NCBI GenBank assembly: GCA_964344705.1
Contig: CAYFOG010000001.1
Coordinates: 2,172-46,983 of the forward strand
Direction of reading: 5' to 3'
Origin: Candidatus Woesearchaeota archaeon
GTDB lineage: Archaea; Nanobdellota; Nanobdellia; UBA10117; ARS21
Length of the DNA: 44,812 nt
The notes under the pieces were generated by a model that worked only from the letters and a program-made list of their open reading frames with translations, did no database searches and was not told the DNA's origin. The position numbers were made by a program, and so were the translations under genes. Shown one piece after another: positions 21,545 through 34,010 of this stretch (position 1 is its first letter; every line of letters begins with the position of its first letter).

Positions 21545-21561
21545 TACATACTTAGTATGTA
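21545..21561. promoter_or_regulatory. Perfect 8-1-8 palindrome upstream of the RHH gene (candidate operator), followed by a TATA-like box
   Basis: TACATACT-T-AGTATGTA at 21545-21561. ATTATATATG at 21577-21586 lies about 25 nt before ATG 21606. Confidence 0.35.
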
Positions 21562-21605
21562 GTTATATGAGAAAGTATTATATATGTAAAGTAATTCATA
21601 TCTGT

Positions 21606-21740
21606 ATGCCGCGTGACAGAATTAGTATTACTATTGATAAAGGTCTTTTGAAATGGATTGATAAGCAAGTTCGTAGTCGGCGCTTTTCAAGCAGAAGTCA
21701 TGCGCTTGAATATGTAGTTTCGAGATATGGAAAAAAATAG
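21606..21740 (+). CDS. Ribbon-helix-helix (CopG/MetJ-type) small protein, 44 aa (absent from the ORF track)
   Basis: My translation: MPRDRISITIDKGLLKWIDKQVRSRRFSSRSHALEYVVSRYGKK. It shows the RHH pattern: beta strand RISITID, then helix, then RS(H)-ALEY helix. It overlaps the giant gene's start by 14 nt. Confidence 0.6.
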   Translation: MPRDRISITIDKGLLKWIDKQVRSRRFSSRSHALEYVVSRYGKK

Positions 21741-24700
21741 ACCACTTTTTATAGTCAGCAATTTAGCAGTAATTTTAGGAATTTCTATTCTTGTCTTAAG
21801 CGGTTTAATTTTTGTAACATTTAATGCTCCAACAGGATTTTTCGAAGGCACAATATCTGGATTTACAACTGCAGATTTGAATGATTCAAATTCTACAAAT
21901 GACGCGGCAGTTAATTTGAATGGATTTGAACAAGGAACTGCGGTTGTTGGTCAAGAGGTTGAGTGGATTAATCCTGGAACAAATGAACTTGTTACGACGA
22001 CAGCACCCGAGGTTAGCGAAACTAGTGAATCGGAAGTTGATGGTAAACTTCAAAAGAAAGTTACTGTTGCTTCTGATTTTCACTATCAAAATGTTTTGAC
22101 ATATGCGTCGATTCCTGACTTGACTCCAGCTCAAGTTAAGTTGTATTGGATTATTGATGGAGTTAAGACTGATGTTACAGATAGAGAAGATTTTAATGTA
22201 ACTTTTTACGATGAGAACAATGATGAATTAATTGACAAAATTTCTTGGATTACACCACATTTATCTACGCAGGAATTCATTCTTGAGTTTGATATAACAG
22301 TTATCAATCCTTGGGAATTCGGACAAAGTGGTGGAGAATGGGTCGTATATTTTGATACAACTGGAACGGGAACTTTGAATATTACAAAAGATGATTTGTC
22401 AAATTCAGTTTTGACGTTTAATTATTTGAAATGTGGGGCTACTGATGTTCCGTATAGTTATGTTGGACAATCTTATGTTGTTGAAAATTATACTTGTTCT
22501 GAAACTGCAACAATTGGTCATACAATTGGAGATATGCCTAATGAAATATTTTCTTTGAGGTTTGATTTCGGAAATGATTTACAAAATGATGTGGATTTTG
22601 CTTATGATCCTGCCATGTGTTTACCTTGGCCAACAGGTATGCCTGGTGAACCAGATTGTTCTGCGTGTGTTCCCGAAGGATTTGTAGGTTTTGATATTGA
22701 TCCAAGCGTTGATGGTGCTTGTTATAGTGATCCGTTTTGTGCAACGCCGTGTGGCGGGGGTGGCCCTCCACCAAACAATGCACCTGTGGCCGTAGCAGAT
22801 TCATATGTTGTTAATGAAGACACTCAGCTCTCTGTTTCTGCGCCAGGCGTTATTAGTAATGATACTGATGCAGATGGAGATTCATTAACTGCTACATTGA
22901 ATACTGACGTATCAAATGGAACACTTTCCTTAAACTCAGATGGTTCATTTACATATACGGGAGATTCAAATTTTAATGGAATTGATACTTTCAAATATTA
23001 TGTTAGTGACGGAACAGATACATCAGATCTTGCAACGGTCACAATTACAGTAACTGCAGTTAATGATGCGCCCAGCGCACCAAGTCTTTCTTTGAGTCCA
23101 TCCACAATTTATGCTTATCAAACGTTGACTGCTTCTGCGTCTGGAAGCACCGATCCTGAAGGAGATACACTTTCATCTTATTACTATGAATTCTATAATA
23201 AGAACGATGCGACCACAGTTCAGTCATATTCTACGACTGCGACATATTCAATTCAATCAACAGACGATAATGATGAAATAAGAGTTCGTACAAAAGTTGA
23301 TGATGGTGTTGTAAATTCTTCTGAGACTACTAAATTAATTAATGTTAGTGACTCAGTTCTTTGTGGAGATACATTAAGTGCTTCAACAACGCTAAATCAT
23401 AATATTACTGACTGTACTAGTGACAATTTTTTAACAATCTCAGGAAATAACAGAGTTATTGATTGTAACGGATACACAATTCAAGGTACTGCCAACACTG
23501 CTTTTTATCTTGGAACGGGAAATTCTGGATCAACTATTAAGAATTGCAATCTCAAATTAAATGGACCAACCAGTAAAAATGGAATTGTTGGATATACAAC
23601 TACGGGATTAACTATTCAGAATAATACAATTAATGTAACGAGTCACCAAGCAATATATCTTGGAACTCGAAGCGCCAATTCAACAATACAGGGAAACACC
23701 TTTATTGGAGATAATTCTAATCCTCTTGTTTATTTGGTTAATGAACCTTTCAATATTACAGTAAGAGATAATAGTTTTACGGAAGGCAACCGTTACGCAA
23801 TTAGATATTATAATGGAAGCAAACATAATAAAATAATAAATAATACTATAACTACTTCAACTTACGGAATTCAATTATATTCAGGAACTTATAATACTAC
23901 TATTGAGAATAATACTCTTACTTGTTCTGGAAATTATTGTGTACAAATTCGTGGCAACGCGAGCGAGAATACAGTGTATAATAATACTCTGATTAATGGA
24001 GGTTATTCTTTATCTTTAAATACCAATGTAACAAAAACTTTGGTTTACAATAATACTATTTCAACCAACTCTTCAGATGGAACCCGAGCAGTCAGATTTA
24101 CAAACGCAAGTCATAACAGAATTTACAATAATACTCTAACTACTTTTGATCAAGGAATTCAAATTTATCTTGAATCTGTCAACAATTCATTTTTAGACAA
24201 TACAATTACTGCAACAGATGATATTGGAATTGAAATACATACTCGTTCATCAAACAATACAATTACTGGAAACACTATGACAATATCTGACGATTATGGA
24301 ATTCGTTTTCTTATTGACTCGTCAGATAATCTTGTAAAAAATAATGTAATAACTGTTACAGATGCTTATGCTTTATCATTTGAGACTAACTCTAAGAACA
24401 ACATTGCTTGGAATAATAATTTCTCAACAAATAGATTAGCTATTCGTGATATAACTTCTGCTACCGAGTTTAATTCACTAGTTTACAATAATTCTTTCGG
24501 AGAGATTAATTTTAATTCAACCTCTTTGACTGAAAATGAGGGCGGAACGTTCGGATTGGGACAAAACCTATCTTTGTTGAGCAATGAAGTTTTTGTCAAT
24601 ATAACTCATTTCCCTAGCTTCAATAGTTCGTCGCGAATAATTATTTTTGGAACTGATGCACTGGGACTTGCAACACGAAAACCTTATCAGGACGGTGCCG

Positions 24701-27012
24701 CGTGCGATTCAAGTATTTGTACGGAAATATCAGATGCTGATATTTACAAATTTAATGTTACAACTTTGACAACCAATAAGAGATACAATTTTAGTGTTGG
24801 TACTGGTGAGTGTATGTCTGCATCAGGAAATGTTTTCGATATTAGTTCTGATACTTCATGTAGTTCTGAAACAATTTCAGACGTAAATAGTGAATTACGA
24901 TTGGGTGCAGGAAATTTGAAGTTAGACAAAGGGAATTTTGAATATTTAATTTTGAATATGACTGATGCTAACTCAATTTTGAATATAACTAATTCTAATT
25001 TTAGTTCCGCAGGCACCGCAGATATTAAAAACAAGTTGATAATATTGGACTCAACATTTAATATCTCAAATGGCTTAACAAGATTTTATCCTGGTTCAAA
25101 ATCAACATTCATCAATTCAACACTGATTACAAACAATTCAATTATTCACGGAAGCTTTGACATTGACCCCTCTAATTGGACCAACTATGGAAACTTAACG
25201 GTAAACAACACAGTTAATGTAACTGACACAACACTCAATGTTACTGATGATATAATCGTTCTAAATAATGGTTGGTTGAATGTTACAAATTCAACTGTAT
25301 ATTCCAGGGGAACTAATGTAACCGGAAACGTTACTATTGACCCTTCAACTTGGGAAGAGCACGGAGATTTGATTGTTGGACCTGGAGGAATGATGGATTT
25401 CATTGACACGGGAGTAATTGTTCATGGAAAAGTTATTGTTGATGGCGGAACGCTGAACTTCTTGCTTGATTCAATTCTTCAAATGAATGCAGATAATCTT
25501 CCAGCGGGAAACTCAGATGTTACAATACAAGATATTGGCTTAGATGCCGGACTAATGTATGTTGATCCGTCTAGCAGGATGGAGCGCAATTCTACTACAA
25601 ATTATAACGTCAAAGCAACTGCGGGCGGAGAACTTAGAATGTATGGTAACGCGACAGATATAGAAGATTTAACCATTGCTTCAGATTCAGTACTTACTTT
25701 CAATGCGGCACCATCTATGGAAGTTGAAGGAACTACTAGTTTAGATGGTACACTTACTATGGCCAGTTCACATTTTGTTTCAAACGGAACCGGAACACTT
25801 TCAATAACTGGAGCAAATTTCTACAACTTGTCTGTGCAGACTGGAACTACAACTTTAGGTTCCGCAGTAACTGTAGATAATTTATTATTGGTTCCTGGAA
25901 CTTTGACAACTAGCGATAATTCAGTAACTACTCCGAAGTTGGATTTGGATGGAACAATTAATGCGGGTTCTTCTGTTGTGACTGTCAATGGAAATGCAAA
26001 CATGACGGGTGGAACTTATACTGCTGGAAATTCCAAATTGATTTTGGGAGGAACGGGTGTTTTCAATCCTGGAGGAAATTCATTTGATAGTTTGAATGTT
26101 AGTAGCGGTAATAATGCGAGACTGGAAGGAGTAGCTACAATTAATCGATTATTCTGTCCAATCGGAGTTTACAATATTAGCGGAAATTCAAATCTGACGT
26201 TAAATCGTTCACAACAAGTTTGTTCAACGCAAGCATACTGGAATATCTCGCTTCACAATGGAAAGATAATCAATGCTTCGATTAATGGAACTAACATAAC
26301 TCACATCAATGGCTCCAATGTTGTTATCCATCCAATCTCAAGTTTCATCCTTGACGCAGGAAACTTCAGAAATGTTTCTTCCTACATAAATATAACGGCT
26401 TCTACTGGAACTTCTTCAGTTGATGTTAATGTTTCTTATCGTGACGAAGATGTCAATGATGTTTCGGAAAGCACAATTAAAATATTTAGATATACAGGAA
26501 GCGCTTGGAGTGAACTTACTGGCTCGACAGTGAATACTGCAACCAATATTATTTCAGCAACACTCAACACATTCTCATTGTTTGGAGGAGGAGGACATGA
26601 GAAATCTGTAGCTATTGCTTTATCTCCAAACTTATCCAGCAACGTAGGATGGACAGTTTCAAACACAACCGGATTGGAATGGATGGGACACAACAATAAT
26701 GGAACTGGACCGACAGGATACTACATTAATATTAGCGCAAATCAAACAACAGTCAATTTAACAATTAAGGCAGATGGAGCGCTTTCAAGCGGAGGAAATA
26801 GTATTGCGTTGACGTATTTCAATTACTCATACAACAATTCAGATAGAACGACACCGGGACCAAACAAATCAATCACTACGACAGCAACAAGCATAGGAAA
26901 TCAACTTGCAAATAAATCAGTAACTTGGTTGAAATTCTTCCTGACCGTTCCTACCCGACAGGCTGCTGGAAACTATACTAATGTAGTTACTATTGCTGCA
27001 ACAGCATCATAA
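21727..27012 (+). CDS. Giant (1761 aa) N-terminally anchored surface protein. It contains a cadherin/VCBS-like module, a PKD/Ig-like module, a right-handed parallel beta-helix (PbH1/NosD-like) array, and a C-terminal module shared with two downstream proteins.
   Basis: - N-terminal TM: FIVSNLAVILGISILVLSGLIFV.
- Cys-rich linker plus GGGGPPP.
- NNAPVAVADSY...NDTDADGDSL...TVTAVNDAP at 22777-23070.
- About 14 repeats of (I/V)xNN(T/V)(I/L) from ~23359 to 24456.
- Very many N-x-S/T sequons.
- Last 138 aa at 26596-27009. Confidence 0.85.
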   Translation: MEKNRPLFIVSNLAVILGISILVLSGLIFVTFNAPTGFFEGTISGFTTADLNDSNSTNDAAVNLNGFEQGTAVVGQEVEWINPGTNELVTTTAPEVSETSESEVDGKLQKKVTVASDFHYQNVLTYASIPDLTPAQVKLYWIIDGVKTDVTDREDFNVTFYDENNDELIDKISWITPHLSTQEFILEFDITVINPWEFGQSGGEWVVYFDTTGTGTLNITKDDLSNSVLTFNYLKCGATDVPYSYVGQSYVVENYTCSETATIGHTIGDMPNEIFSLRFDFGNDLQNDVDFAYDPAMCLPWPTGMPGEPDCSACVPEGFVGFDIDPSVDGACYSDPFCATPCGGGGPPPNNAPVAVADSYVVNEDTQLSVSAPGVISNDTDADGDSLTATLNTDVSNGTLSLNSDGSFTYTGDSNFNGIDTFKYYVSDGTDTSDLATVTITVTAVNDAPSAPSLSLSPSTIYAYQTLTASASGSTDPEGDTLSSYYYEFYNKNDATTVQSYSTTATYSIQSTDDNDEIRVRTKVDDGVVNSSETTKLINVSDSVLCGDTLSASTTLNHNITDCTSDNFLTISGNNRVIDCNGYTIQGTANTAFYLGTGNSGSTIKNCNLKLNGPTSKNGIVGYTTTGLTIQNNTINVTSHQAIYLGTRSANSTIQGNTFIGDNSNPLVYLVNEPFNITVRDNSFTEGNRYAIRYYNGSKHNKIINNTITTSTYGIQLYSGTYNTTIENNTLTCSGNYCVQIRGNASENTVYNNTLINGGYSLSLNTNVTKTLVYNNTISTNSSDGTRAVRFTNASHNRIYNNTLTTFDQGIQIYLESVNNSFLDNTITATDDIGIEIHTRSSNNTITGNTMTISDDYGIRFLIDSSDNLVKNNVITVTDAYALSFETNSKNNIAWNNNFSTNRLAIRDITSATEFNSLVYNNSFGEINFNSTSLTENEGGTFGLGQNLSLLSNEVFVNITHFPSFNSSSRIIIFGTDALGLATRKPYQDGAACDSSICTEISDADIYKFNVTTLTTNKRYNFSVGTGECMSASGNVFDISSDTSCSSETISDVNSELRLGAGNLKLDKGNFEYLILNMTDANSILNITNSNFSSAGTADIKNKLIILDSTFNISNGLTRFYPGSKSTFINSTLITNNSIIHGSFDIDPSNWTNYGNLTVNNTVNVTDTTLNVTDDIIVLNNGWLNVTNSTVYSRGTNVTGNVTIDPSTWEEHGDLIVGPGGMMDFIDTGVIVHGKVIVDGGTLNFLLDSILQMNADNLPAGNSDVTIQDIGLDAGLMYVDPSSRMERNSTTNYNVKATAGGELRMYGNATDIEDLTIASDSVLTFNAAPSMEVEGTTSLDGTLTMASSHFVSNGTGTLSITGANFYNLSVQTGTTTLGSAVTVDNLLLVPGTLTTSDNSVTTPKLDLDGTINAGSSVVTVNGNANMTGGTYTAGNSKLILGGTGVFNPGGNSFDSLNVSSGNNARLEGVATINRLFCPIGVYNISGNSNLTLNRSQQVCSTQAYWNISLHNGKIINASINGTNITHINGSNVVIHPISSFILDAGNFRNVSSYINITASTGTSSVDVNVSYRDEDVNDVSESTIKIFRYTGSAWSELTGSTVNTATNIISATLNTFSLFGGGGHEKSVAIALSPNLSSNVGWTVSNTTGLEWMGHNNNGTGPTGYYINISANQTTVNLTIKADGALSSGGNSIALTYFNYSYNNSDRTTPGPNKSITTTATSIGNQLANKSVTWLKFFLTVPTRQAAGNYTNVVTIAATAS

Positions 27013-27013
27013 A

Positions 27014-27160
27014 ATGAAAGAAAGAATTACAGTGAGCATTGAAAGAAGATTGCTTAAGAAAGTGGATTCAAGTATTGATAAGTATTTGTTTGCGAATAGA
27101 AGTCACGGATTTGAATATTTAGTTGCGGAGGAAAAGAGAAAGTCTAAAAGTAGGAGATGA
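27014..27160 (+). CDS. Ribbon-helix-helix small protein, 48 aa, paralogue of 21606-21740 (absent from the ORF track)
   Basis: My translation: MKERITVSIERRLLKKVDSSIDKYLFANRSHGFEYLVAEEKRKSKSRR. It aligns with the first RHH (R-I-[ST]-[IV]-[ST]-I-[DE]..LL.K.[IV]D....RSH..EY.V). It starts 2 nt after the giant gene's stop, and its TGA overlaps the next ATG. Confidence 0.6.
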   Translation: MKERITVSIERRLLKKVDSSIDKYLFANRSHGFEYLVAEEKRKSKSRR

Positions 27161-27917: not shown

Positions 27918-27974
27918 TGTTAACAGTGTTAACAAAGATAAGATATATAAACAAGTATGTTAATATTGTTAACA
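27918..27974. promoter_or_regulatory. Four TGTTAA(C/T)A sites in two 9-bp-spaced pairs flanking a TATA-like box
   Basis: TGTTAACA at 27918-27925, 27927-27934 and 27967-27974. TGTTAATA at 27958-27965. ATATATAAA at about 27943-27951 lies between the pairs. The pairs are 40 bp apart and sit immediately upstream of the 27976 start. Confidence 0.45.
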
Positions 27975-27975
27975 G

Positions 27976-28470
27976 TTGGGTGGTAGATTGAATAAGTCAA
28001 TCAAAGGTAGACAGATTTATGTATATTCTACTAGTCACCTGACTCCAACTGAGCGTGTAAAGTTCTTCTACGCTCTGAAGGGCCGGAACGGCAAGCCTGG
28101 AATTCTAGATACCACCCAATCTATTTTTTTGGCTAAAACCGTTCTAAGCGTTCTTCCTAACCAGGCTAGGGAGATTGAGCAGTTCCTGAAAACTTGGGGC
28201 TGCAAATTTTCTGTCAAGAAGGTTAAAACTTCTGGCAAACCTACGCACGCAATTGTTCGTTATTCTACCATCCATTTGAATGCGACAGGACGTGTAAAAT
28301 TTGTTTATGCATTGCATGGACGAGGCAGTTCTGAAGGAATTTTAAGACCTGGCGAAATGATGGCGAAGACTATTTTGTTTGTACCTATCAAACGTCTAGC
28401 TGAAATTAAGGCCTTCTTGGAGAGCTGGAACTGCAAACTATTGATTGAGGAGGTGGAAGCTAGTGAGTAA
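27976..28470 (+). CDS. Hypothetical protein made of two tandem ~80-aa repeats (predicted alpha/beta), TTG start
   Basis: Repeat 1 is IYVYSTSHLTPTERVKFFYALKGRNGKPGILDTT..LAKTVLSV..QAREIEQFLKTWGCKFSVKKV. Repeat 2 is IVRYSTIHLNATGRVKFVYALHGRGSSEGILRPG..MAKTILFV..RLAEIKAFLESWNCKLLIEEV. No family recognised. Confidence 0.6.
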   Translation: MGGRLNKSIKGRQIYVYSTSHLTPTERVKFFYALKGRNGKPGILDTTQSIFLAKTVLSVLPNQAREIEQFLKTWGCKFSVKKVKTSGKPTHAIVRYSTIHLNATGRVKFVYALHGRGSSEGILRPGEMMAKTILFVPIKRLAEIKAFLESWNCKLLIEEVEASE

Positions 28471-29332
28471 GATAAGCCGATTGAGACAGGAATTGAATCA
28501 TGTTGCTAAGCTTAGGTCTGAACTTCATGCAGATAGAGAGAAACTTGCAAAGAGAATTCATGCACTGAACAGACAATACAAGCAATCTGAGATAACTCAT
28601 CAAAACTACTCAGAACAATTCGAAGACTTGCTTGGAAATAGGACTCTTGAAGATCATGAACGAAGATATCATAGACGAATTGAAGAGTTAAGGCATCGTG
28701 AGCACGCAATAAATCATAGCATTGGTCGAGCAGAAGCAAACAAATCAGCAATGATTAAGGCAATCATATTGTCTGCTATGATGTTGATGGCAGTTACTGT
28801 TCCAATAGTAATGTTTGATGGAGGAGTAACAGGATTTGCTACATCGCAATCAACAACTACAACGGCAACAGCAGAGATTGTTTATTACTATGCGTTGGCA
28901 GAATCTGCAGACTTCAGTGCCGGAATAGATTTCAGCAGTTTAGCTCATAATACTCAGAACAACAATGCTAGTTCGAACTATGAGAACTCAGGAACAGGAT
29001 ATGCTTTGAATCTATCTACAGATTCGAATACAGATGTATCGATATGTGTAAAGGCAAATACTGATTTGAAGATACATACAAGTCCAAGTAACTTGATTGG
29101 AATCGGAAATATGACGTTCAATGCTTCCATCACCAACTCAACTAGCTTACCTGCCTTTGGAAATAGAACTGAAATGAATAGCTCAATCTTCAGAAACGCA
29201 ACTCATAACTTGGGAGCTGGAAATGCAACCTTCTTCAGATTCTGGCTGACAGTTCCCGATGGAACTGTGTCAGGCACTTACAATAACTCAGCAACCTTCA
29301 AGGCAATCAGGACCGGAGATGCTTGCGCATAG
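28463..29332 (+). CDS. Bitopic protein with a cytoplasmic coiled coil, one TM, and an extracellular module homologous to the giant protein's C-terminus
   Basis: GTG 28463 is preceded by GGAGGTG (28449-28455), which is complementary to the 16S 3' end. TM AIILSAMMLMAVTVPIVMF. The ectodomain (28871-29329) ends in FFRFWLTVPDGTVSGTYNNSATFKA. Confidence 0.7.
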   Translation: MSKISRLRQELNHVAKLRSELHADREKLAKRIHALNRQYKQSEITHQNYSEQFEDLLGNRTLEDHERRYHRRIEELRHREHAINHSIGRAEANKSAMIKAIILSAMMLMAVTVPIVMFDGGVTGFATSQSTTTTATAEIVYYYALAESADFSAGIDFSSLAHNTQNNNASSNYENSGTGYALNLSTDSNTDVSICVKANTDLKIHTSPSNLIGIGNMTFNASITNSTSLPAFGNRTEMNSSIFRNATHNLGAGNATFFRFWLTVPDGTVSGTYNNSATFKAIRTGDACA

Positions 29333-29380: not shown

Positions 29381-29599
29381 ATGAATTTAGACTTCTCAGA
29401 TAGGAAGATTTTGGCAGCAGGGATGGTACTTTTGGTTGTTGCTGCAGGTTTAGGAGTGCTCTGGATTGTAGATAATGCTACGTCTGAGACTCCAGTTCTT
29501 CAAACTTCTACTACTGGGTCGTTTATGATTGAAGTTACTGATAATAGTTTAGATAATGGCGAAGAAAGCACAGCGACGGAAACAGACTCGGCGGGTTGA
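29381..29599 (+). CDS. Small TM protein (72 aa) with a post-TM GSFMIEV strand and an acidic tail
   Basis: TTTAAATA at 29352-29359 lies about 25 nt upstream of the ATG. TM ILAAGMVLLVVAAGLGVLWIV. It overlaps the next ORF by 44 nt in another frame, so its coding status is uncertain. Confidence 0.4.
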   Translation: MNLDFSDRKILAAGMVLLVVAAGLGVLWIVDNATSETPVLQTSTTGSFMIEVTDNSLDNGEESTATETDSAG

Positions 29600-30119
29600 T
29601 AATCACGAATATGCAGTGATTGGCGCACTTGCTATAGTAGTTGCGGCTATTTTCGTTTTCAGCACTTATGGTTTTAATATTGTTGGAATGGCAGATGGCA
29701 CATTTCAAGTAGTTGTCACGGGAACGGCAGGCTGTACTATTGATCAAAGTTCTACTCTTAGCGCAGTAGGTGGGACTGAAAATACGACTGTTAGTGGAAC
29801 TCCGCTGATTTTGAACAACACTGGAAACGTAGATCTTAATGTTACAGTCAATTCAAGCAAGAACAATGCAACTTTATTCTCAGGAACCAGTCCAAAATTC
29901 TATTGGAACTTCAGTAATTATGAAGCCAGTTCAGGAACCATTGCCTCCGGGTTTGCGTCGTGGGTAGGAGTAGGAACAGATTCAAACATTCCAGTTACAA
30001 ACTTCCAATTTGAAGCAAGCACAGATACAATCAGGATTGACTTTAATGTCACTCCACCAGTAGATGAACCTGCTGCTACAAAATCTGCAACAATAACTAT
30101 CACTTGTGCACAGTCATAA
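29556..30119 (+). CDS. Small secreted or anchored beta-rich subunit-like protein (187 aa)
   Basis: Basic N-terminus MAKKAQRRKQTRR and TM YAVIGALAIVVAAIFVF. These are followed by DGTFQVVVTG, LILNNTGNVDLNVTV and IRIDFNVTPPVDEPAATKSATITITC. N-x-S/T rich. Confidence 0.65.
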   Translation: MAKKAQRRKQTRRVDNHEYAVIGALAIVVAAIFVFSTYGFNIVGMADGTFQVVVTGTAGCTIDQSSTLSAVGGTENTTVSGTPLILNNTGNVDLNVTVNSSKNNATLFSGTSPKFYWNFSNYEASSGTIASGFASWVGVGTDSNIPVTNFQFEASTDTIRIDFNVTPPVDEPAATKSATITITCAQS

Positions 30120-30619
30120 TGCTATCGAGATATCTTATTCTGTTATTTGTCTTGCCAGGAGTATTCGCATTCACAGTATCTCCAAGTGTGGTTGAATATG
30201 AGTTTATTCCAGGAGGCAATTATCTTGGAAAAATATGTATTGTTGGAGGAGAGGATAAATTTTTCAACTTGACTCTCGGAAACAAAGACATAATTAGTGA
30301 TATCGATTTTGAAGATACCTTTATACCTTCCAAAAATTATGATTGCCAGAATTACACATTTAGCACAAATTACTTCGTTGATGAGCAAAAAAATTATGAA
30401 GCGCATATATACGTTTCAGAGCACGATCCAAATAGAAACTTAGAGGAAGAAGGTATTAGTTTTTTGACAAGAATTGCACAACGTATTGTTATTGATGCTA
30501 AGGAAGCACCAGTCAAGGAAGACGCACCTAAAATGGGACTCACTTTTGCTTCAGTAGGTTTGGGCGCATTTATTGTAGGAGTTCTTACCTTATTGTTCAT
30601 TAGACGCAAGCGTAACTAA
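30119..30619 (+). CDS. Signal-peptide Ig-like protein with a C-terminal TM anchor and basic tail
   Basis: ATG 30119 overlaps the upstream TAA (TAATG). Signal peptide MLSRYLILLFVLPGVFA. FTVSPSVVEYEFIPGGN. TM LGAFIVGVLTLLFI followed by RRKRN. Confidence 0.7.
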   Translation: MLSRYLILLFVLPGVFAFTVSPSVVEYEFIPGGNYLGKICIVGGEDKFFNLTLGNKDIISDIDFEDTFIPSKNYDCQNYTFSTNYFVDEQKNYEAHIYVSEHDPNRNLEEEGISFLTRIAQRIVIDAKEAPVKEDAPKMGLTFASVGLGAFIVGVLTLLFIRRKRN

Positions 30620-30649
30620 ATTTATTAATCATTGAGAACTTTGAATTGT

Positions 30650-31948
30650 ATGCGTAGAGAATTACTATTAGTTCCGCTCTTCTTAATACTGCCCGGAGCT
30701 CTGGCTTTTGGTATGCTTGATGCTCTTTCAATACTCGATCCATTTGTTTCTGGAACATTCTCAATTGAAGTTGTAGGAGGAAATGCACCGGTTTGGAATC
30801 AATCTATTTCCAATGTCACCGTCAATCAAGATTCAGGTTCAACAGTTGTAGATTCAGATTTAACGCTCTTAGGAAATGGTCAATGTACTGATGCGGATAA
30901 TACTACTCCAACTTTTGCTGTGGAAAGTGAAAACACATCTGCGGTAGATTGTTCAATTTCAAGTACGGAATTAAGTATAACTCCTGCAACAGGTTTTACT
31001 GGAAATGATACATGTATTATTTCATGTTCTGACTCTCTTAATTCTACAAATAGCACCTTTACTATAACTGTAAATGCAGTTGCTGCTGAAGAAGAGGAAG
31101 CTACAGCACCAAGCGCCGCAGGAGGGGCAGGTGGAGGAGGCGCTTTTTCTGGAGCTCCAACACCAGAAGCAGGACCAACCTTTGAAGTAACTCCAGCAGT
31201 TATTACGATTGAATTGAATCGAGGTCAGACTGCTACAAAAACATTTACAGTTTCAAATTTCAGAAATGTTTTGAGAACATTCAAAATTACATTGAGAGGT
31301 ATTTCAAGTTTGGCAGTTGTTCAGAGTGACGCAGTTGTTGATGCGCAAGGCAGAGCCTTTGTTGGAATTAATTTCTATGTTCCAGAGGGAACAAGAATTG
31401 GCGTTTACTCAGGAAGTATTGATGTTGAATCTGAGACCATTTCTGTAATTGTTGAGGTAAAAGCGAGAGATACAGATTCTGAAGTAGGACTCACTTTACA
31501 AGATAGTAAATCGGCTCCAACTGCGGCATTTGTTGGACAGTTAGATTTGCGAGCAGTTTATCCGGGACAAGTTTTGAATCCTAGATTAGATTTGTCTTCC
31601 TTTTTTGATAAAGGATTTGATTTGTTAAATGTTGAATATAGAATTTTAAACTCTGAAAATCAAGTAGTGTATTCAGAAACTGTCGAAACTCAAGTTAGTG
31701 AATCTGAATTTGTGAAAGAAATTACTTTACCTACGGATATTTCCCCAGGGAGATATGTATTATCTGTGTTGATTGACGAAGAGAGAGCATCAGGTTCTGC
31801 ATCAAAAACCTTTGACGTTCTTTCAAGGCGTGCATTTTTCTCAGATACTTTTATTATTCAAATCGCCGTTGTCTTGACGATATTGGCTGGAGCGTTCTTG
31901 ATGCATGTACATCGCAAGGCAAAGAAGCACAAACCAAGAGCAAGATAG
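30650..31948 (+). CDS. Signal-peptide multi-domain Ig-like protein with a C-terminal TM anchor and basic tail
   Basis: Signal peptide MRRELLLVPLFLILPGALA. SGTFSIEVVGGN. Ala/Gly/Glu linker. FEVTPAVITIELNRGQTATKTFTVSN. A second beta domain. TM IIQIAVVLTILAGAFLM followed by HVHRKAKKHKPRAR. Confidence 0.75.
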   Translation: MRRELLLVPLFLILPGALAFGMLDALSILDPFVSGTFSIEVVGGNAPVWNQSISNVTVNQDSGSTVVDSDLTLLGNGQCTDADNTTPTFAVESENTSAVDCSISSTELSITPATGFTGNDTCIISCSDSLNSTNSTFTITVNAVAAEEEEATAPSAAGGAGGGGAFSGAPTPEAGPTFEVTPAVITIELNRGQTATKTFTVSNFRNVLRTFKITLRGISSLAVVQSDAVVDAQGRAFVGINFYVPEGTRIGVYSGSIDVESETISVIVEVKARDTDSEVGLTLQDSKSAPTAAFVGQLDLRAVYPGQVLNPRLDLSSFFDKGFDLLNVEYRILNSENQVVYSETVETQVSESEFVKEITLPTDISPGRYVLSVLIDEERASGSASKTFDVLSRRAFFSDTFIIQIAVVLTILAGAFLMHVHRKAKKHKPRAR

Positions 31949-31978
31949 GCTTTTATAATTCGAGAAGCTATTTTGTTT

Positions 31979-32989
31979 ATGCGTAAACTGGCTCTCTTGT
32001 TGTTATTGTTTCCAATAGTTTTTGCACATCACGGAGTTTTTGGCGAATTTGGATTTGTTGATTCTGAATTACCGTTTGGATACTCAAAAACATTCTCACT
32101 TTCTGAGGTTGAAGTTAATTTGGAAGAACGAAGCTACTTTGAAATAGACATTATTAATGAAGGAGTTGGTCCGCTGTTCTTGATTGTTGATTATCCTGAT
32201 TTTTTAAGTGGAGAAACGCAACTGGAGATAGAAGATGCTCATACTTTGCGAATTGATGTTGACAAAGTCAGCAATTCCTTTGGAGTTATTGGATTTAAGT
32301 CACCAGATTCCTCACTTTTTCTACCAGTTACTCATTCTTTGATAGATATGAGTGTATTTTCTAGCTTTGATTTGAAGTTGGTTTCGGATGTCTATTTTGC
32401 AGGAGGGAATATGTCTTTTGATATAGAAATAACGGATGATAATTCGGAAGGAACCAAAGAAGTAGAATTAAGACTCACTTTGATATCTAAGGACAATCAA
32501 GAGGTGCTTGAAGACACAAAAACCCTTGCCGTAGATGCATTATTTGATGAAGAAGTATCACTTTATTTACCTGAATATTTGTCTAAAGGAGAGTATGCAT
32601 TGTTTGCATCTATGAATTATGATGGTTCATCAGATTATGAATACTCACTTTTTACTTTGGATGAAAGCAAGGCAAAGGGAACAGATTTTTCAGGATTAAT
32701 TAATTCAGGATTATTTTTACTAATAATTGGATTGTTTGTATTTTTAGTACATAATAGCCATAGACATCTGGGTAAATTGAGGAGATTACACCATAAACAC
32801 TCACTTTCGATTCGACGGCATCGAGCAACACGCGCAGAAGCCGAAGTGGTTGAGAAGAAACTTTCTTCTATTAGATCTGCTTATTTAGAGGGGGCAATTT
32901 CCAAAAAGAACTATGATTCTGCAGTCAAAAGATTAAGGGATAGGCTTAAGGCATTGCGATTAGGCCTCAAAAAGCGCCCAGGTAAGTAG
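31979..32989 (+). CDS. Signal-peptide two-domain Ig-like protein with a TM anchor and a long basic coiled-coil tail
   Basis: Signal peptide MRKLALLLLLFPIVFA (ATG 31979). FSLSEVEVNLEERSYFEIDIINEG. TM GLFLLIIGLFVFLV. Tail of about 75 aa rich in Arg, Lys and His. Confidence 0.75.
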   Translation: MRKLALLLLLFPIVFAHHGVFGEFGFVDSELPFGYSKTFSLSEVEVNLEERSYFEIDIINEGVGPLFLIVDYPDFLSGETQLEIEDAHTLRIDVDKVSNSFGVIGFKSPDSSLFLPVTHSLIDMSVFSSFDLKLVSDVYFAGGNMSFDIEITDDNSEGTKEVELRLTLISKDNQEVLEDTKTLAVDALFDEEVSLYLPEYLSKGEYALFASMNYDGSSDYEYSLFTLDESKAKGTDFSGLINSGLFLLIIGLFVFLVHNSHRHLGKLRRLHHKHSLSIRRHRATRAEAEVVEKKLSSIRSAYLEGAISKKNYDSAVKRLRDRLKALRLGLKKRPGK

Positions 32990-33028: not shown

Positions 33029-33373
33029 ATGGCCAGAGCTAAACGTGTTTCCAAGGCAAGGAAAAGAGCCACCCGTAGAAAGTCATCTAAGAACCAAAAT
33101 TATTTGACTGCAGCGATGTCTGATATTGGCAAGGAACTTAGAAGACTCACTTTGGGCAAGAAGAGATTAAGATCTCGGCTGGAGAGTTCTAGAAGAGAGC
33201 TTTTGAGATTAAAGGTTCGAGAAGATAGAGTTCGAGACAGACTCACTAAATTGATTGCAAAAGAAGGGCCTATTCATGAGAATCAACGTAATTTGAAGCG
33301 TTCAATTACAGAACTTAAGAATAGAATTTTGAAAGTCAAGAAAATTCGAGAAGAAATTCGAGATCCAGAATAA
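33029..33373 (+). CDS. Highly basic coiled-coil protein (114 aa)
   Basis: MARAKRVSKARKRATRRKSSK followed by heptad-like R/L/K/E repeats. The T-run TTTTTTATTTTT (33382-33393) follows the stop codon. Confidence 0.55.
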   Translation: MARAKRVSKARKRATRRKSSKNQNYLTAAMSDIGKELRRLTLGKKRLRSRLESSRRELLRLKVREDRVRDRLTKLIAKEGPIHENQRNLKRSITELKNRILKVKKIREEIRDPE

Positions 33374-33419
33374 ATTGTCGTTTTTTATTTTTACAGTAAG
33401 GTTTTTATTGTTCAAGTGA

Positions 33420-33490
33420 GTTAAACTACTGTTAAACACATGTTAAACACTTCTCAGCAGGTGTTGAACATATCTAAACGTGTTTAAACA
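33420..33490. promoter_or_regulatory. Cluster of TGTT(A/G/T)AACA-type sites upstream of the wHTH gene
   Basis: GTTAAAC at 33420-33426. Tandem TGTTAAACAC(A) at 33430-33440 and 33441-33450, with an 11-bp period. TGTTGAACA at 33462-33470. The perfect palindrome TGTTTAAACA at 33481-33490. One more TGTTAAACAC lies at 33997-34006, just past the gene's stop. Confidence 0.4.
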
Positions 33491-33494
33491 GAAG

Positions 33495-33995
33495 ATGGTT
33501 GTCAAAAAAGCTCTAAGAAAACTTCTGAGAAGGAAGCGAAGAACTAAAACTGTAGAAAAAGAAGAAGTTGAGAAACACAAAGTTCTCAGAAGTTGGGAAG
33601 ACATTTATGGAGAACTAAGTGAACATCCTCTTACTCAAGCGAAGATAATTAATGAACAACTATTACATTCTACTAATGATGCTTTGAATGAAATAAACAA
33701 TAAGTTAGATAATTTAGATGAAAGAGTTGGTGCTTTAGAGCGGAGACGTCCAATATCCAAACGAAACAAAGGAGACGATAATATTCGAACTATTATTCCT
33801 CGAGCTAAGTTATCTAATCAAGAGGAACAGATTGTACAGTTGATTGAGGCTCAGAATGAAGTTGATGCAAAGACTGTTGCTCAGAAATTTAATATCTCTC
33901 GATCTAATTCTAGCTTGAAATTAAATAAATTGCATAATTGGGGTTTCTTAGCCAAGCGTTTAGATGAGAAAAGCGTTTTCTTTAGAATAAAGTAG
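33495..33995 (+). CDS. Coiled-coil plus C-terminal winged-helix DNA-binding protein
   Basis: The C-terminal EEQIVQLIEAQNEVDAKTVAQKFNISRSNSSLKLNKLHNWGFLAKR follows a MarR/ArsR-like wHTH pattern. ATG 33495 is preferred over the track's GTG 33480. Confidence 0.6.
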   Translation: MVVKKALRKLLRRKRRTKTVEKEEVEKHKVLRSWEDIYGELSEHPLTQAKIINEQLLHSTNDALNEINNKLDNLDERVGALERRRPISKRNKGDDNIRTIIPRAKLSNQEEQIVQLIEAQNEVDAKTVAQKFNISRSNSSLKLNKLHNWGFLAKRLDEKSVFFRIK

Positions 33996-34010
33996 TTGTT
34001 AAACACGCGT

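What the first reader, a model, noticed from the sequence alone, without database searches (positions are those of the whole stretch)
21545..34006. Candidate uncharacterised cell-surface fibre/adhesion assembly locus
About 12.4 kb of uninterrupted + strand genes sit between housekeeping xth and a recombinase, and none of their products matches a pathway I can name.

The parts look co-evolved rather than random:
- One giant adhesin (1761 aa) shares its last ~138 aa with the ectodomain of 28463-29332, and shows a looser pattern-level resemblance to 29556-30119.
- Three proteins carry the same short strand right after their N-terminal TM or signal sequence.
- Four proteins share the architecture of signal peptide, Ig-like beta domain(s), C-terminal TM and basic tail.
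- Two RHH paralogues bracket the giant gene.
- A wHTH gene, a basic coiled-coil gene and arrays of a shared cis motif complete the set.
- Several gene junctions are overlapping or abutting (ATGA, TAATG, 8-nt and 14-nt overlaps), which implies coupled expression.

The layout is one large tip- or adhesin-like protein, small subunits with the same terminal module, and membrane-tethered Ig-fold partners. This is formally reminiscent of donor-strand or chaperone-assisted fibre systems: bacterial chaperone-usher/Csu, TasA-type fibres, archaeal bundling pili and threads, and Firmicute WxL/Csc clusters. However, I see no usher, no type IV pilin signal, no prepilin peptidase, no sortase or archaeosortase signal, and no secretion ATPase. 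For a putative DPANN episymbiont, such a locus would be a plausible host-attachment device.
Basis: partly seen in the sequence, partly recalled or inferred. Interest (0 to 1): 0.8.

Follow-up and report, generated by a model that had tools for sequence, protein, structure and literature searches.

The report
Pilin-like adhesin assembly locus, DPANN archaeon
A marine DPANN archaeon carries a conserved 12-kb gene cluster for a giant surface adhesin and small membrane partners; the end-domain they share is predicted to fold like bacterial and archaeal pilus subunits, which points to an undescribed and widespread archaeal way of building attachment structures.

Summary
Thirteen + strand genes lie between xth and a XerA-type recombinase in a Woesearchaeota/Nanoarchaeota chromosome, and apart from the giant protein's adhesin domains none reaches a Pfam, NCBIfam or PHROG cut-off.

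- **Shared module.** The giant protein's last ~135 aa and the g06 ectodomain are homologous (hhalign 98.8%). An exhaustive search shows the module is a family-wide, strictly C-terminal domain ("CTD"). It is found on at least 159 cluster representatives, from small subunits to 3,000-aa adhesins, mostly in DPANN.
- **Fold.** A confident AlphaFold model (pLDDT 90) finds mainly donor-strand pilins in the PDB: CfaB, FimA, CsuA/B, PapE, Caf1, the archaeal thread and cannulae. E-values are weak (0.005–0.09) and TM-scores reach 0.58.
- **Co-occurrence.** In 73 metagenome loci found through the g04 protein, 69 also encode a CTD. Every locus with enough upstream sequence has one. The recurring order is adhesin-CTD, then 1–3 small CTD subunits, then a g04-like protein, then a g10-like protein.

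The window holds an elaborated version of this operon, with a hypervariable g08–g09 cassette. My best reading is an usher-less, pilin-type system that displays an adhesin or builds a short fibre. Strand exchange itself is untested. It is a new variant of a known kind, with high interest.

The parts
21545..21561 (.). 17-nt palindrome TACATACTTAGTATGTA upstream of g01, followed by an A/T-rich TATA-like stretch (21574-21586). Candidate operator and promoter of the g01-g04 unit.
   Evidence: Sequence read. Conserved in L001, L004, L008 and L011. Function is inferred.
21606..21740 (+). g01, a 44-aa ribbon-helix-helix protein. Overlaps the giant gene by 14 nt.
   Evidence: RHH_1 E 1e-3, below cut-off. 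NikR N-terminal-like. Paralogue of g03 at 36% identity, E 1e-10.
21727..27012 (+). g02, a 1761-aa giant adhesin. Layout: N-terminal TM (21763-21819); conserved N-domain (~21904-22626); Big_9/cadherin-like domain (22774-23055); Beta_helix/NosD repeats (23578-24477); long N-x-S/T-rich beta region; C-terminal pilin-like module.
   Evidence: Pfam hits. Topology and 78 sequons. The N- and C-terminal parts are conserved while the middle is replaced in L008, L011, L013 and L014.
26602..27009 (+). C-terminal module (CTD, adhesin type) of the giant protein, ~135 aa, ending at the protein's C-terminus.
   Evidence: Homologous to the g06 ectodomain. An exhaustive phmmer search found 159 representatives with E<=1e-3. 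The domain ends within 24 aa of the C-terminus in 144 of 150.
27014..27160 (+). g03, a 48-aa ribbon-helix-helix paralogue. ATGA overlap with g04.
   Evidence: Present between the giant and g04 in all window-type loci.
27157..27903 (+). g04: signal peptide, ~140-aa beta domain with 4 conserved Cys, TM, basic tail and a cytoplasmic helical tail. Founder of the 'g04-like' family that always accompanies CTD genes. Candidate membrane-tethered assembly factor.
   Evidence: Alignment A8. No Pfam, PDB or NCBIfam match. 69 of 73 g04-bearing metagenome loci carry a CTD ORF, and 51 of 51 with enough upstream sequence do. It has no sequons.
27918..27974 (.). Operator-like array: TGTTAACA at 27918, 27927 and 27967 (plus TGTTAATA at 27958), flanking a TATA-like box (27940-27952) upstream of g05.
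   Evidence: These are the only 3 copies in the window. The array is conserved in L001-L012, including the divergent type.
27976..28470 (+). g05, a cytoplasmic 164-aa protein made of two ~80-aa repeats. It is the most conserved locus-specific protein and overlaps g06.
   Evidence: Alignments A1 and A5. The family has 69 hits, including single-domain and NTase-fused forms. It is always next to a g06 that has a cytoplasmic N-domain.
28445..29332 (+). g06 (start at 28445 or 28463). Layout: ~100-aa cytoplasmic coiled coil; TM (28760-28816); N-terminal extension TGFATSQSTTTTATAEI (28826-28879); pilin-like ectodomain (28880-29329) with a Cys pair. This is the small-subunit type of the CTD family.
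   Evidence: hhalign against the CTD profile gives 99.7%, E 2e-26. AF2 pLDDT 90.1, pTM 0.80. Foldseek top hits are donor-strand pilins. 14 sequons.
29381..29599 (+). g07, a 72-aa protein: TM, a single beta-strand motif (GSFMIEV, 29516-29536) and an acidic tail. Candidate strand-only donor or cap.
   Evidence: Orthologues are in L001-L011, L013 and L014. Role is inferred.
29556..30119 (+). g08, a 187-aa protein: basic N-terminus, TM, strand motif (GTFQVVV, 29697-29717), beta-rich ectodomain, Cys pair with a near-C-terminal Cys. Probably a divergent small subunit. It is hypervariable.
   Evidence: Family of 10. AF2 failed at pLDDT 46.8. hhalign against small CTD subunits gives 95% with the TM and 41.6% for the ectodomain only; controls are <=1%. 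45-51% identity in genomes whose flanks are 96-98% identical.
30104..30619 (+). g09 (probable start ATG 30119, TAATG junction): signal peptide, beta domain, TM, RRKRN tail. It is a paralogue of g04 and co-varies with g08.
   Evidence: hhalign g04 vs g09 gives 88.8% over 154 columns. The g09 HMM also hits the L013 g04. Hypervariable.
30632..31948 (+). g10, 438 aa. Layout: signal/TM, strand motif (GTFSIEV, 30752-30772), Big_9-like domain, Cep192_D6-like (PapD/ASH-type Ig) domain, MG2-like Ig domain, TM, basic tail. It is the conserved fourth component of the core operon.
   Evidence: Weak Pfam hits. 25 homologues, several with PF22076. A g10/g11-like gene lies downstream of g04-like in 26 of 45 loci with at least 2 kb downstream.
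31973..32989 (+). g11, 338 aa: signal peptide, two beta domains (one shared with g10), TM, and a long basic coiled-coil cytoplasmic tail.
   Evidence: hhalign of g10(311-398) against g11(143-231) gives 88%. Topology.
33029..33373 (+). g12, a 114-aa basic cytoplasmic coiled-coil protein. Lineage-restricted accessory.
   Evidence: Present in L001-L011 and not detected in L013 or L014.
33430..33490 (.). Array of TGTTAAACA-type repeats (33430, 33441, 33462, 33480) upstream of g13. One more copy is at 33997-34005, between g13 and xerA.
   Evidence: The repeats travel with the g13-xerA pair in L013 and L014.
33480..33995 (+). g13 (probable start ATG 33495): basic coiled coil plus a MarR-like winged helix. 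Membership in the surface locus is doubtful because it is conserved next to xerA.
   Evidence: Weak MarR_2/HTH hits. g13-xerA adjacency is kept in the rearranged L014.

Best explanation
The locus encodes an archaeal system that displays an adhesin, or builds a short fibre, from pilin-like modules without an usher.

**Shown**
- A ~135-aa domain sits at the extreme C-terminus of the giant adhesin. It also forms the ectodomain of the small membrane protein g06.
- This domain defines a large, mostly DPANN family. The family comes in two forms: on adhesins of any size, and as ~190-210-aa small subunits with an N-terminal extension.
- Genes for both forms are almost invariably followed by a g04-like protein (signal peptide, Cys-rich beta domain, TM) and often by a g10-like multi-Ig membrane protein.
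- A confident model of the domain is most similar to pilins that polymerise by donor-strand complementation.

**Inferred**
- The giant protein acts as a tip adhesin, like FimH, PapG or CsuE. Its C-terminal pilin-like domain accepts a strand from the N-terminal extension of g06, and perhaps of g08.
- g06 is held in the membrane by its TM. Its cytoplasmic coiled coil is bound by g05. Together these tether the adhesin to the cell.
- g07 is a TM plus one strand. It, or the matching N-terminal strands of g08 and g10, fills the remaining acceptor sites.
- The sequon-poor, membrane-tethered g04 and g09 act as dedicated folding or assembly partners for their upstream subunits: giant/g06 for g04, and g08 for g09. 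They would stand in for the periplasmic chaperone. No usher is needed in a cell with one membrane.
- g10 and g11 form the membrane platform.
- The RHH proteins act on the palindromic and TGTTAACA operators to control at least three transcription units.
- The hypervariable g08-g09 cassette and the swappable middle of the adhesin diversify what the cell exposes, under selection from partners or viruses.
For: **Module homology and fold**
- Giant C-terminus vs g06.
- The family is strictly C-terminal, as expected if a free C-terminus next to the last strand matters: 159 representatives, and 144 of 150 end within 24 aa of the C-terminus.
- Passenger regions are adhesin-type: Beta_helix, LamG, FG-GAP, Big_1, F5/8C.
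- AF2 model: pLDDT 90.1, pTM 0.80, with a low-confidence, flexible N-terminal extension.
- About 40 of the top 50 Foldseek PDB hits are donor-strand pilins. These include CfaB, FimA, FimI, PapE, the PapG pilin domain, CsuA/B, SafA, Caf1 and CS17, plus the archaeal thread Saci_0406 and cannula CanA. Probabilities are 0.85-1.0 and TM-scores normalised to the target are 0.50-0.58 for FimA, PapE and CsuA/B.
- Nothing in the viral library scores better.

**Operon conservation**
- The window-type order is kept down to 42% g05 identity in L013, and the set survives rearrangement in L014.
- The adhesin / small subunit / g04-like / Ig-TM order recurs in L015, in L016 (a Methanomethylicota MAG) and in L018.
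- 69 of 73 g04-bearing metagenome loci carry 1-4 CTD ORFs. All 51 with at least 900 nt upstream have one upstream on the same strand.

**Other support**
- Small subunits share a TGxAT motif followed by a strand as their N-terminal extension. g07, g08 and g10 carry a matching strand.
- Sequons are dense on the giant, g06 and g08 but nearly absent on g04, g09 and g11.
- g08 followed by g09 mirrors the subunit-then-g04-like order.
- Known archaeal strand-donation filaments also lack a chaperone and an usher (thread paper; Tafi paper).
Against: - **Weak fold match.** No Foldseek hit reaches E<=1e-3. RMSDs are 4.6-13 Å and TM-scores are at or below about 0.58, so the match could reflect a generic beta-sandwich. 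GH123 N-domains also appear among the hits.
- **No sequence link.** Nothing connects the module to any solved pilin or to Pfam or NCBIfam pilin families.
- **Acceptor groove not examined.** Neither an incomplete fold nor strand insertion was tested.
- **g04 and g09.** They have no detectable similarity to PapD-like chaperones, and their fold is unknown.
- **Membrane anchors.** In the window every candidate subunit keeps an N-terminal TM and no processing enzyme is in the locus. A long polymer is therefore less likely than a short anchored assembly.
- **g08.** It could not be modelled, and its link to the family is weak once the TM is removed.
- **Exception.** One CTD adhesin, L017 from an Aenigmarchaeota MAG, has no detectable g04 neighbour.
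Confidence: 0.45

Rival explanations
1. A membrane-anchored adhesin complex or glycoprotein coat that does not use strand exchange. The CTD is an ordinary complete beta-sandwich. It mediates lateral or heterodimeric contacts between the giant adhesin and the membrane proteins g06, g04, g10 and g11, much like a stalk or docking domain. No fibre forms.
For: - All eight exported proteins in the window keep a TM anchor.
- Foldseek E-values are weak, and non-pilin sandwiches also appear among the hits.
- No chaperone, usher or peptidase family was detected.
- The co-occurrence data fit any obligate complex equally well.
Against: - The top-ranked structural neighbours are overwhelmingly strand-donation pilins from five or more unrelated systems.
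- In other genomes the small subunits have cleavable-looking signal peptides and occur in 1-3 tandem copies, like pilus operons.
- The strictly C-terminal position and the conserved N-terminal extension are hallmarks of strand-exchange subunits.
- g07 consists of little more than one exported strand.
Confidence: 0.3
2. The locus is mainly a contact-sensing or transmembrane signalling device. Surface Ig-type proteins with cytoplasmic coiled-coil tails (g04, g06, g11) relay binding at the surface to the cytoplasmic proteins g05 and g12 and to DNA-binding proteins (RHH x2, wHTH).
For: - g04, g06 and g11 have long cytoplasmic helical tails.
- Five small cytoplasmic proteins, three of them DNA-binding, are in or next to the locus.
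- Conserved operator arrays are present.
- g05 always accompanies g06 forms that have a cytoplasmic domain.
Against: - The core operon in most other genomes lacks g05, g12, the RHH genes and the cytoplasmic tails, yet keeps the adhesin, small subunit, g04 and g10.
- g13 segregates with xerA.
- No kinase, nucleotide cyclase or other signalling domain was found.
- This could be an added layer rather than the primary function.
Confidence: 0.1
3. A chance neighbourhood of unrelated, fast-evolving surface or S-layer genes with no common machinery.
For: Most products have no family assignment. Surface genes often cluster.
Against: - The same gene set persists across lineages with 31-42% protein identity, through a rearrangement, and as a four-gene core in 73 metagenome loci.
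- The locus contains internal paralogy and shared motifs.
- Adjacent genes overlap.
Confidence: 0.05
4. An integrated mobile element or provirus next to its integrase, encoding receptor-binding proteins.
For: A tyrosine recombinase lies directly downstream. RHH and wHTH genes are common in archaeal viruses. One cassette is hypervariable.
Against: - The locus sits at the same place (sec61-beta, xth ... xerA, epimerase) in genomes down to 42% g05 identity.
- The recombinase is 67-98% conserved, like a housekeeping XerA.
- There are no PHROG hits, no capsid, terminase or replication genes, no flanking direct repeats, and no shift in composition.
Confidence: 0.03

Closest known systems
Bacterial chaperone-usher pili (type 1/P pili, CFA/I class 5 pili, archaic Csu pili)
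   Same: - They are the closest structural neighbours of the modelled CTD: CfaB, FimA, FimI, PapE, the PapG pilin domain and CsuA/B.
- The logic is the same: a two-part tip adhesin whose C-terminal domain is pilin-like, small subunits with an N-terminal extension, the pilin domain at the extreme C-terminus, and an operon that also encodes Ig-type accessory proteins.
   Different: - No sequence homology.
- No PapD-like chaperone and no usher family.
- The host is a single-membrane archaeon.
- The accessory protein is membrane-tethered and has an unknown fold.
- Subunits in the window keep TM anchors.
- Strand exchange is not shown.
Archaeal threads of Sulfolobus acidocaldarius (Saci_0406 and the Saci_0404-0409 cluster)
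   Same: - They are an archaeal, Sec-exported, heavily N-glycosylated strand-donation filament with no identifiable chaperone or usher, and with a cluster of uncharacterised accessory genes (paper 10.1101/2022.04.26.489512).
- Saci_0406 (7pnb) is among the Foldseek hits at E 0.039.
- An aromatic YYY stretch lies near the start of the mature subunit in both.
   Different: - No sequence relationship.
- According to the paper, threads are restricted to Thermoproteota.
- The thread cluster has no giant adhesin carrying the subunit fold, and no g04-like or g10-like genes are described for it.
Tat-fimbriae / Tafi bundling pili (TafA/E pilins, TafC tip, TafF anchor, TafD peptidase, TafB regulator)
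   Same: An archaeal strand-donation pilus locus with a tip protein, a membrane anchor and a transcription regulator (PMC12337348). The division of labour matches the one inferred here.
   Different: - Tafi loci are defined by the TafD signal peptidase and TafE-type pilins. No peptidase is in this locus, and no TafE-like match appeared in the sequence or fold searches.
- The paper reports Tafi in Halobacteria, Archaeoglobales, Thermococcales and Sulfolobales.
TasA / archaeal bundling pili (AbpA) and Pyrodictium cannulae (CanA)
   Same: They are strand-donation filaments of single-membrane cells that assemble without an usher. CanA (9h8b, 7uii) appears among the fold hits at E ~0.06.
   Different: - No Peptidase_M73/TasA or SipW-type signal was detected.
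- These systems do not have an adhesin with the subunit fold as its C-terminal domain.
- The similarity is weaker than to chaperone-usher pilins.
Firmicute WxL / Csc surface-protein clusters
   Same: They are gene clusters that combine large surface proteins with small proteins built as signal peptide, beta-sandwich and C-terminal TM anchor.
   Different: No WxL, DUF916 or DUF3324 match was found. One faint WxLIP_PGBD hit (E 0.81) in one CTD sequence is noise. The resemblance is in architecture only.

Membership tests
Chaperone-usher pili | Subunit with a pilin Ig-like fold that lacks its last strand and is completed by a donated strand. | tested here: inconclusive
   The AF2 model (pLDDT 90) has donor-strand pilins as its closest PDB folds, but at E 5e-3 to 0.09 and TM <=0.58. 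The groove and strand insertion could not be examined because there were no coordinates and no multimer run.
Chaperone-usher pili | PapD-like periplasmic chaperone (PF00345/PF02753). | tested here: not met
   No such hit in any locus protein. The g04 family matches nothing in Pfam, PDB or NCBIfam. g10 has only a sub-threshold Cep192_D6 (PapD/ASH-type Ig) hit.
Chaperone-usher pili | Outer-membrane usher (PF00577). | tested here: not met
   No hit. The organism is an archaeon.
Chaperone-usher pili | Sequence membership of the subunits in the Fimbrial, SCPU or related Pfam families. | tested here: not met
   30 CTD members were scanned. The only related match is DUF4402 at E 0.28 in one member. 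PDB profile searches found no pilin.
Archaeal threads (Saci_0406 family) | Sequence homology to Saci_0406. | tested here: not met
   Profiles A6 and A7 did not retrieve 7pnb from the PDB sequences. There is only a weak fold match at E 0.039.
Archaeal threads (Saci_0406 family) | Inter-subunit strand donation, and an isopeptide bond involving the N-terminal Asp. | not testable with these tools
   This needs a multimer model or an experimental structure.
Tafi (Tat-fimbriae) | TafD-type signal peptidase and TafE/TafA pilins in the locus. | tested here: not met
   No peptidase domain in any locus protein. No Tafi chain appears among the sequence or top fold hits.
TasA / archaeal bundling pili | Peptidase_M73/TasA-fold subunit with a SipW-cognate signal and an adjacent SipW-type peptidase. 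| tested here: not met
   No Pfam or NCBIfam hit, and no peptidase gene in 20787-34817.
Type IV pili / archaella | Class III signal peptide, prepilin peptidase, assembly ATPase and platform protein. | tested here: not met
   No such domains in the locus or its immediate flanks. The N-termini have TM segments followed by TGxAT-type motifs, not a class III signal.
Archaeosortase / sortase-anchored proteins | A PGF-, PEF- or VPXXXP-CTERM or LPXTG signal, plus a cognate sortase. | tested here: not met
   Only isolated sub-threshold hits to C-terminal TM models in 1-2 of 11 g04 homologues (PEF-CTERM E 9.5e-4, GG_III-CTERM 0.013). No conserved motif precedes the TM.
New 'CTD adhesin / small subunit / g04-like / g10-like' operon (defined here) | An adhesin ending in the CTD, plus at least one small CTD subunit, plus a g04-like gene on the same strand. 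| tested here: met
   In the window these are the giant (CTD at 26602-27009), g06 and g04. The same triad occurs in L013, L014, L015, L016, L018 and in 69 of 73 metagenome loci.

The most novel reading that the evidence does not exclude
This would be the first donor-strand-type pilus or adhesin-display system of DPANN archaea. It is a widespread, previously undescribed four-component machine: an adhesin ending in a pilin-like domain, small pilin-like subunits, a membrane-tethered g04-type assembly factor, and a multi-Ig membrane platform. It would be an archaeal functional counterpart of chaperone-usher pili that arose without an usher. In episymbiotic Woesearchaeota it would serve as the host-attachment device, with a hypervariable subunit/assembly-factor cassette (g08-g09) and a swappable adhesin middle setting partner specificity.
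Probability: 0.4. Interest if true: 0.9.

Novelty: new variant of a known kind. Interest (0 to 1): 0.75.

Why it matters
**Open question it addresses.** DPANN archaea make up a large share of archaeal diversity and mostly live attached to other cells. The proteins that build their attachment structures are unknown. A cryo-ET study of a Nanobdellota archaeon says this explicitly for its attachment organelle (PMC11420986).

**What is new relative to known systems.** The papers I read place archaeal strand-donation filaments (threads, bundling pili, cannulae, Tafi) in Thermoproteota and in euryarchaeal groups. In none of these does the subunit fold also form the C-terminal domain of giant adhesins.

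**What this locus offers.**
- It defines three uncatalogued protein families: the CTD, the g04-like proteins and the g05 repeat.
- It gives a simple operon signature that can be searched in any archaeal genome.
- It names testable candidates for host attachment and for partner specificity in DPANN.

**If strand exchange is confirmed.** It would show that the adhesin-on-a-pilin-domain solution of Gram-negative bacteria also exists in single-membrane archaea, with a membrane-tethered factor in place of the chaperone and usher.

Tried and rejected
- **Provirus or mobile element.** Rejected. There are no PHROG hits, no flanking repeats and no compositional break. The chromosomal position is the same in all relatives.
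- **AF2 of g08.** A 10-sequence alignment gave pLDDT 46.8. The model was not used for fold search.
- **Profile searches against the PDB.** Sequence profiles of g08, g09, g04 and the CTD found nothing significant.
- **Pfam and NCBIfam scans.** Scans of CTD and g04 family members found nothing.
- **Viral structure library.** No informative hit.
- **Promoter, terminator and repeat scans.** The generic sigma-70 and terminator scan and the generic repeat finder gave nothing beyond chance. The real cis motifs were found by reading the intergenic spacers.
- **Exact look-up of g09.** Not on record.
- **g08 as a clear CTD member.** Not established.
- **g13 as part of the surface system.** Doubtful, because it is conserved next to xerA.
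- **Literature searches.** I looked for a prior description of this operon in DPANN or Woesearchaeota and found none in the held library. That library is incomplete.
- **FimA C-terminus.** From memory, the FimA C-terminus (…ATFKVQYQ) resembles the CTD's …FKAV end. This is a recollection and was not tested.

Full report
**Context**

The window is archaeal. It has a 16S–tRNA-Ala–23S operon at 15367–20002 and an archaeal RNase P RNA at 20321–20578. Related contigs in the species-representative genome set are titled Candidatus Woesearchaeota or Nanoarchaeota MAGs, which are DPANN.

The finding covers thirteen + strand genes, which I call g01–g13. They lie between xth (20787–21542) and a XerA-type tyrosine recombinase (34011–34817, − strand).

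**Checking the observation**

- **Family assignments.** Only the giant protein (g02, 1761 aa) has hits above a family cut-off: Big_9/cadherin-like at residues 350–443 and Beta_helix/NosD at 618–917. The two RHH proteins and the wHTH score weakly. g04–g12 have nothing above cut-off in Pfam, NCBIfam or PHROGs.
- **RHH genes.** They are paralogues, with 36% identity and E 1e-10.
- **Shared module.** The giant's C-terminus and the g06 ectodomain are homologous. BLASTP gives 34% over 109 aa (E 4e-4). Profile–profile comparison gives 98.8% probability, E 1e-16, over 134 columns.
- **Strand motif.** G[ST]F.[IV][EV]V occurs three times in the six-frame translation of the whole window. Each copy lies just after the N-terminal TM of g07, g08 or g10.
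- **Topology.** A hydropathy scan gives two classes.
  - g04, g09, g10 and g11 have a signal-like N-terminus, a C-terminal TM and a basic tail.
  - The giant, g06, g07 and g08 have a single N-terminal TM.
- **Cis motifs.** They are real and conserved even in divergent relatives.
  - The window's only three TGTTAACA copies lie in the 72-nt g04–g05 spacer, around a TATA-like box.
  - TGTTAAACA-type repeats cluster upstream and downstream of g13.
  - A 17-nt palindrome precedes g01.

The one weak item is the resemblance of g08 to the shared module; see "Reading the window locus" below.

**Co-conservation**

- **Close relatives.** Contigs carrying g08 or g05 relatives show the same order: sec61β–xth–[locus]–xerA–epimerase.
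- **A divergent type.** L010, L011 and L012 have g05 at ~64% identity and g04, g06 and g10 at 31–35%. They keep every gene class, including the small ones.
- **L013.** g05 is 42% identical, yet the order and the chromosomal position are both retained.
- **L014.** The genes are rearranged into divergent operons. The set is still present: a giant of at least 2776 aa with the same N- and C-terminal domains, plus g04, g05, g06, g07, g08, an Ig/TM protein and g13 next to xerA.

The set is therefore functionally linked and is not a mobile insertion.

**The C-terminal module is a large family**

An exhaustive phmmer search with the giant's last 174 residues found 159 cluster representatives with E ≤ 1e-3.

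- The ~135-aa domain ends within 24 residues of the C-terminus in 144 of the 150 best hits.
- It occurs on proteins of 97–3088 aa.
- Passenger regions carry adhesin-type domains: Beta_helix/NosD, LamG, FG-GAP, Big_1 and F5/8C.
- No Pfam, NCBIfam or PDB sequence match covers the domain.
- Source names, where available, are Woese-, Pace-, Nano- and Aenigmarchaeota, archaeon GW2011_AR1, Thorarchaeota and Methanomethylicota. One hit comes from a bacterial-labelled MAG.

Two forms are visible.

| Form | Where it sits | Distinguishing features |
|---|---|---|
| Adhesin type | At the C-terminus of a longer protein | Ends …FKAVxxGxxP |
| Small subunit | ~190–210-aa protein | TM or signal peptide, then a TGxAT-type motif and a ~15–20-residue extension before the first strand; Cys pair with the second Cys near the C-terminus |

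g06 is of the small-subunit type. It differs in having an added ~100-aa cytoplasmic coiled coil.

**Fold**

With a 95-row alignment, the g06 ectodomain modelled confidently: pLDDT 90.1 and pTM 0.80. Only the N-terminal extension had low confidence.

Foldseek against the PDB gave no hit at E ≤ 1e-3, but roughly 40 of the top 50 hits are pilins that assemble by donor-strand complementation.

- **Bacterial pilins:** CfaB (best E 4.7e-3, probability up to 1.0), FimA and FimI (TM up to 0.58), PapE (0.55), CsuA/B (0.50–0.54, RMSD 5 Å), the PapG pilin domain, SafA, Caf1, CS17 and HdaB.
- **Archaeal filaments:** the Sulfolobus thread subunit (7pnb) and Pyrodictium cannula CanA.
- **Non-pilin hits:** the main recurring one is the GH123 N-terminal sandwich.

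The viral structure library gave nothing better. I read this as consistent, moderate evidence for a pilin-like fold. It is not proof of strand exchange.

**A recurring operon**

Looking up small CTD proteins in three distant genomes showed the same gene order each time:

1. adhesin with a CTD,
2. small CTD subunit,
3. g04-like protein,
4. another signal/Ig/TM protein.

The three genomes were L015 (a 1.17-Mb contig), L016 (a Methanomethylicota MAG) and L018 (a Woesearchaeota MAG).

I then scanned JGI metagenome contigs with the g04 alignment and recovered 73 loci.

| Measure | Result |
|---|---|
| Loci with at least one CTD ORF in the flanks | 69 of 73 (the other four are short or truncated contigs) |
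| Loci with ≥900 nt upstream that have a CTD ORF upstream on the same strand | 51 of 51 (44 within 400 nt) |
| CTD ORFs per locus | 1–4 |
| Loci with ≥2 kb downstream that have a g10/g11-like gene downstream | 26 of 45 |
| Loci with a g05-like gene | 30 of 73 |

The core is thus a four-component operon. It reads like a pilus operon: adhesin, one to three small subunits, a dedicated accessory Ig-type protein, and a membrane platform.

The g04 family has four conserved Cys. It has no relative in Pfam, PDB or NCBIfam.

**Reading the window locus against this core**

- The giant, g04, g06 and g10 are the four core components.
- g09 is a paralogue of g04 (88.8%). g11 shares an Ig domain with g10 (88%).
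- g08 directly precedes g09, which mirrors the order of a subunit followed by a g04-like gene.
- The link from g08 to the small subunits is suggestive but not established.
  - Deeper profiles align g08 to the small subunits at 95% probability (E 4e-8, 167 columns) when the TM and N-terminal motif are included.
  - Ectodomains alone give 41.6% (E 2.7e-4).
  - Controls give ≤1%.
- N-glycosylation sequons are dense on the giant, g06 and g08 (3.7–4.7 per 100 aa). They are nearly absent from g04, g09 and g11. This fits exposed structural parts versus membrane-proximal assembly parts.
- g05 is always next to g06 forms that carry the cytoplasmic domain. It is absent where the small subunit has only a signal peptide. 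It therefore probably binds that domain.

**Variation**

The g07-3′/g08/g09 segment (about 29500–30700) is only 53–68% identical in DNA to L001, whose flanks are 88–95% identical. The more distant L008 is 71–81% identical in that segment (protein values). This is allele discordance, as expected for a cassette that is exchanged or kept under balancing or diversifying selection.

The middle of the giant is replaced between lineages, while its N-domain and CTD are kept.

**Mechanism proposed**

*Shown:*
- module homology,
- the family-wide C-terminal position of the domain,
- a pilin-like predicted fold,
- an obligate gene neighbourhood,
- topology,
- shared N-terminal strands,
- conserved operator arrays.

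*Inferred:*
- The giant is a tip adhesin. Its CTD is completed by the N-terminal extension of g06 or g08.
- g06 tethers the assembly to the membrane and, through its coiled coil, to g05.
- g07 (a TM plus one strand) or the strands of g08 and g10 fill the remaining acceptor sites.
- g04 and g09 are membrane-tethered assembly factors for the subunit encoded upstream of each.
- g10 and g11 form a platform.
- The RHH proteins regulate through the operators.

Every subunit in the window keeps a TM, and no processing enzyme is present. I therefore favour a short anchored assembly here rather than a long fibre. Loci with signal-peptide subunits in tandem, such as L052 and L076–L087, may build longer polymers.

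I put 0.45 on this strand-exchange model and 0.30 on a non-exchanging anchored complex. The rest goes to signalling-first, chance-cluster and mobile-element readings.

**Comparison with known systems**

The system works most like chaperone-usher pili and archaeal strand-donation filaments (threads, Tafi, bundling pili, cannulae). It is a member of none of these.

- There is no sequence homology to any of their subunits.
- It has no PapD-like chaperone, usher, TafD or SipW peptidase, class III signal, ATPase or sortase signal.
- The thread and Tafi papers report those systems in Thermoproteota and in euryarchaeal groups, and note the lack of a chaperone and usher.
- I found no description of this operon in the held literature.
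- A cryo-ET study states that the proteins of a DPANN attachment organelle are unknown.

**Verdict**

Three corrections apply:

- The shared module is a widespread family, not a feature specific to this locus.
- g13 probably belongs with xerA.
- Strand exchange and host attachment are untested.

I rate it a new variant of a known kind, with high interest.

Noticed in passing
window 33430-34817; L013 14338-15772; L014 4111-5584: The wHTH gene g13 is convergent with and adjacent to the XerA-like recombinase in the window, in L013 and in the rearranged L014 (XerA 49% identical). The TGTTAAACA repeats travel with this pair, and one copy lies between the two stop codons (33997-34005). This looks like a separate g13-xerA module and may be related to regulation of xerA or to its site.
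   Followed up: partly
window 29500-30700: This is a hypervariable cassette covering the g07 3' end, g08 and g09. It is 53-68% identical in DNA to L001, whose flanks are 88-95% identical, while the more distant L008 is 71-81% identical here. That is allele discordance, suggesting cassette exchange or balancing selection.
   Followed up: partly
window 22600-26500 vs L008, L011, L013, L014: The middle of the giant adhesin is replaced between lineages: 1075 aa in L008; 1145 aa in L011; 1887 aa with cadherin-like and LamG (Laminin_G_3) domains in L013; at least 2776 aa in L014. The N-terminal ~300 aa and the C-terminal module are kept.
   Followed up: partly
window 27976-28470; L019 7001-10266; P0103, P0104: The ~80-aa repeat of g05 forms its own family. 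One single-domain 97-aa form overlaps the start of a 1002-aa Big_9/CLIPPER surface protein. Other forms are fused to a Polbeta/NTP_transf_2 nucleotidyltransferase domain. No Pfam family matches. By eye the repeat looks like a beta-alpha-beta-beta-alpha-beta (ferredoxin/Cas2-like) unit, but this is untested.
   Followed up: partly
L014 6776-9853; L020 6593-9836: In the rearranged lineages, the g07-g08-Ig/TM operon continues with a 141-145-aa protein and then a type II membrane protein with a weak Transglut_core hit. That protein is a candidate processing protease or cross-linker for the subunits. No equivalent is present in the window locus.
   Followed up: no
L010 (JAAZWY010000010.1) and L008 (JAAZWY010000001.1): The same MAG (bin102p) holds a window-type locus and, on a 5-kb contig, a divergent-type locus fragment. 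This is either a second paralogous locus or a mixed bin.
   Followed up: no
window 543-647: Rfam reports a tRNA of 105 nt (62 bits) that ARAGORN did not call. It is probably an intron-containing archaeal tRNA.
   Followed up: no
window 28445-28760, 27700-27903, 32750-32989: The cytoplasmic parts of g06 (N-terminal), g04 and g11 (C-terminal tails) are helical, basic and coiled-coil-like. g06 and g11 both give weak GvpG hits (E 0.014 and 0.007). They may share a short cytoplasmic interaction motif that binds g05 or g12.
   Followed up: no
window 20629-20784 and 20321-20578: The RNase P RNA gene lies directly after the rRNA operon and before sec61-beta and xth. This housekeeping arrangement upstream of the locus is conserved in L001, L004, L008, L011 and L013.
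   Followed up: no
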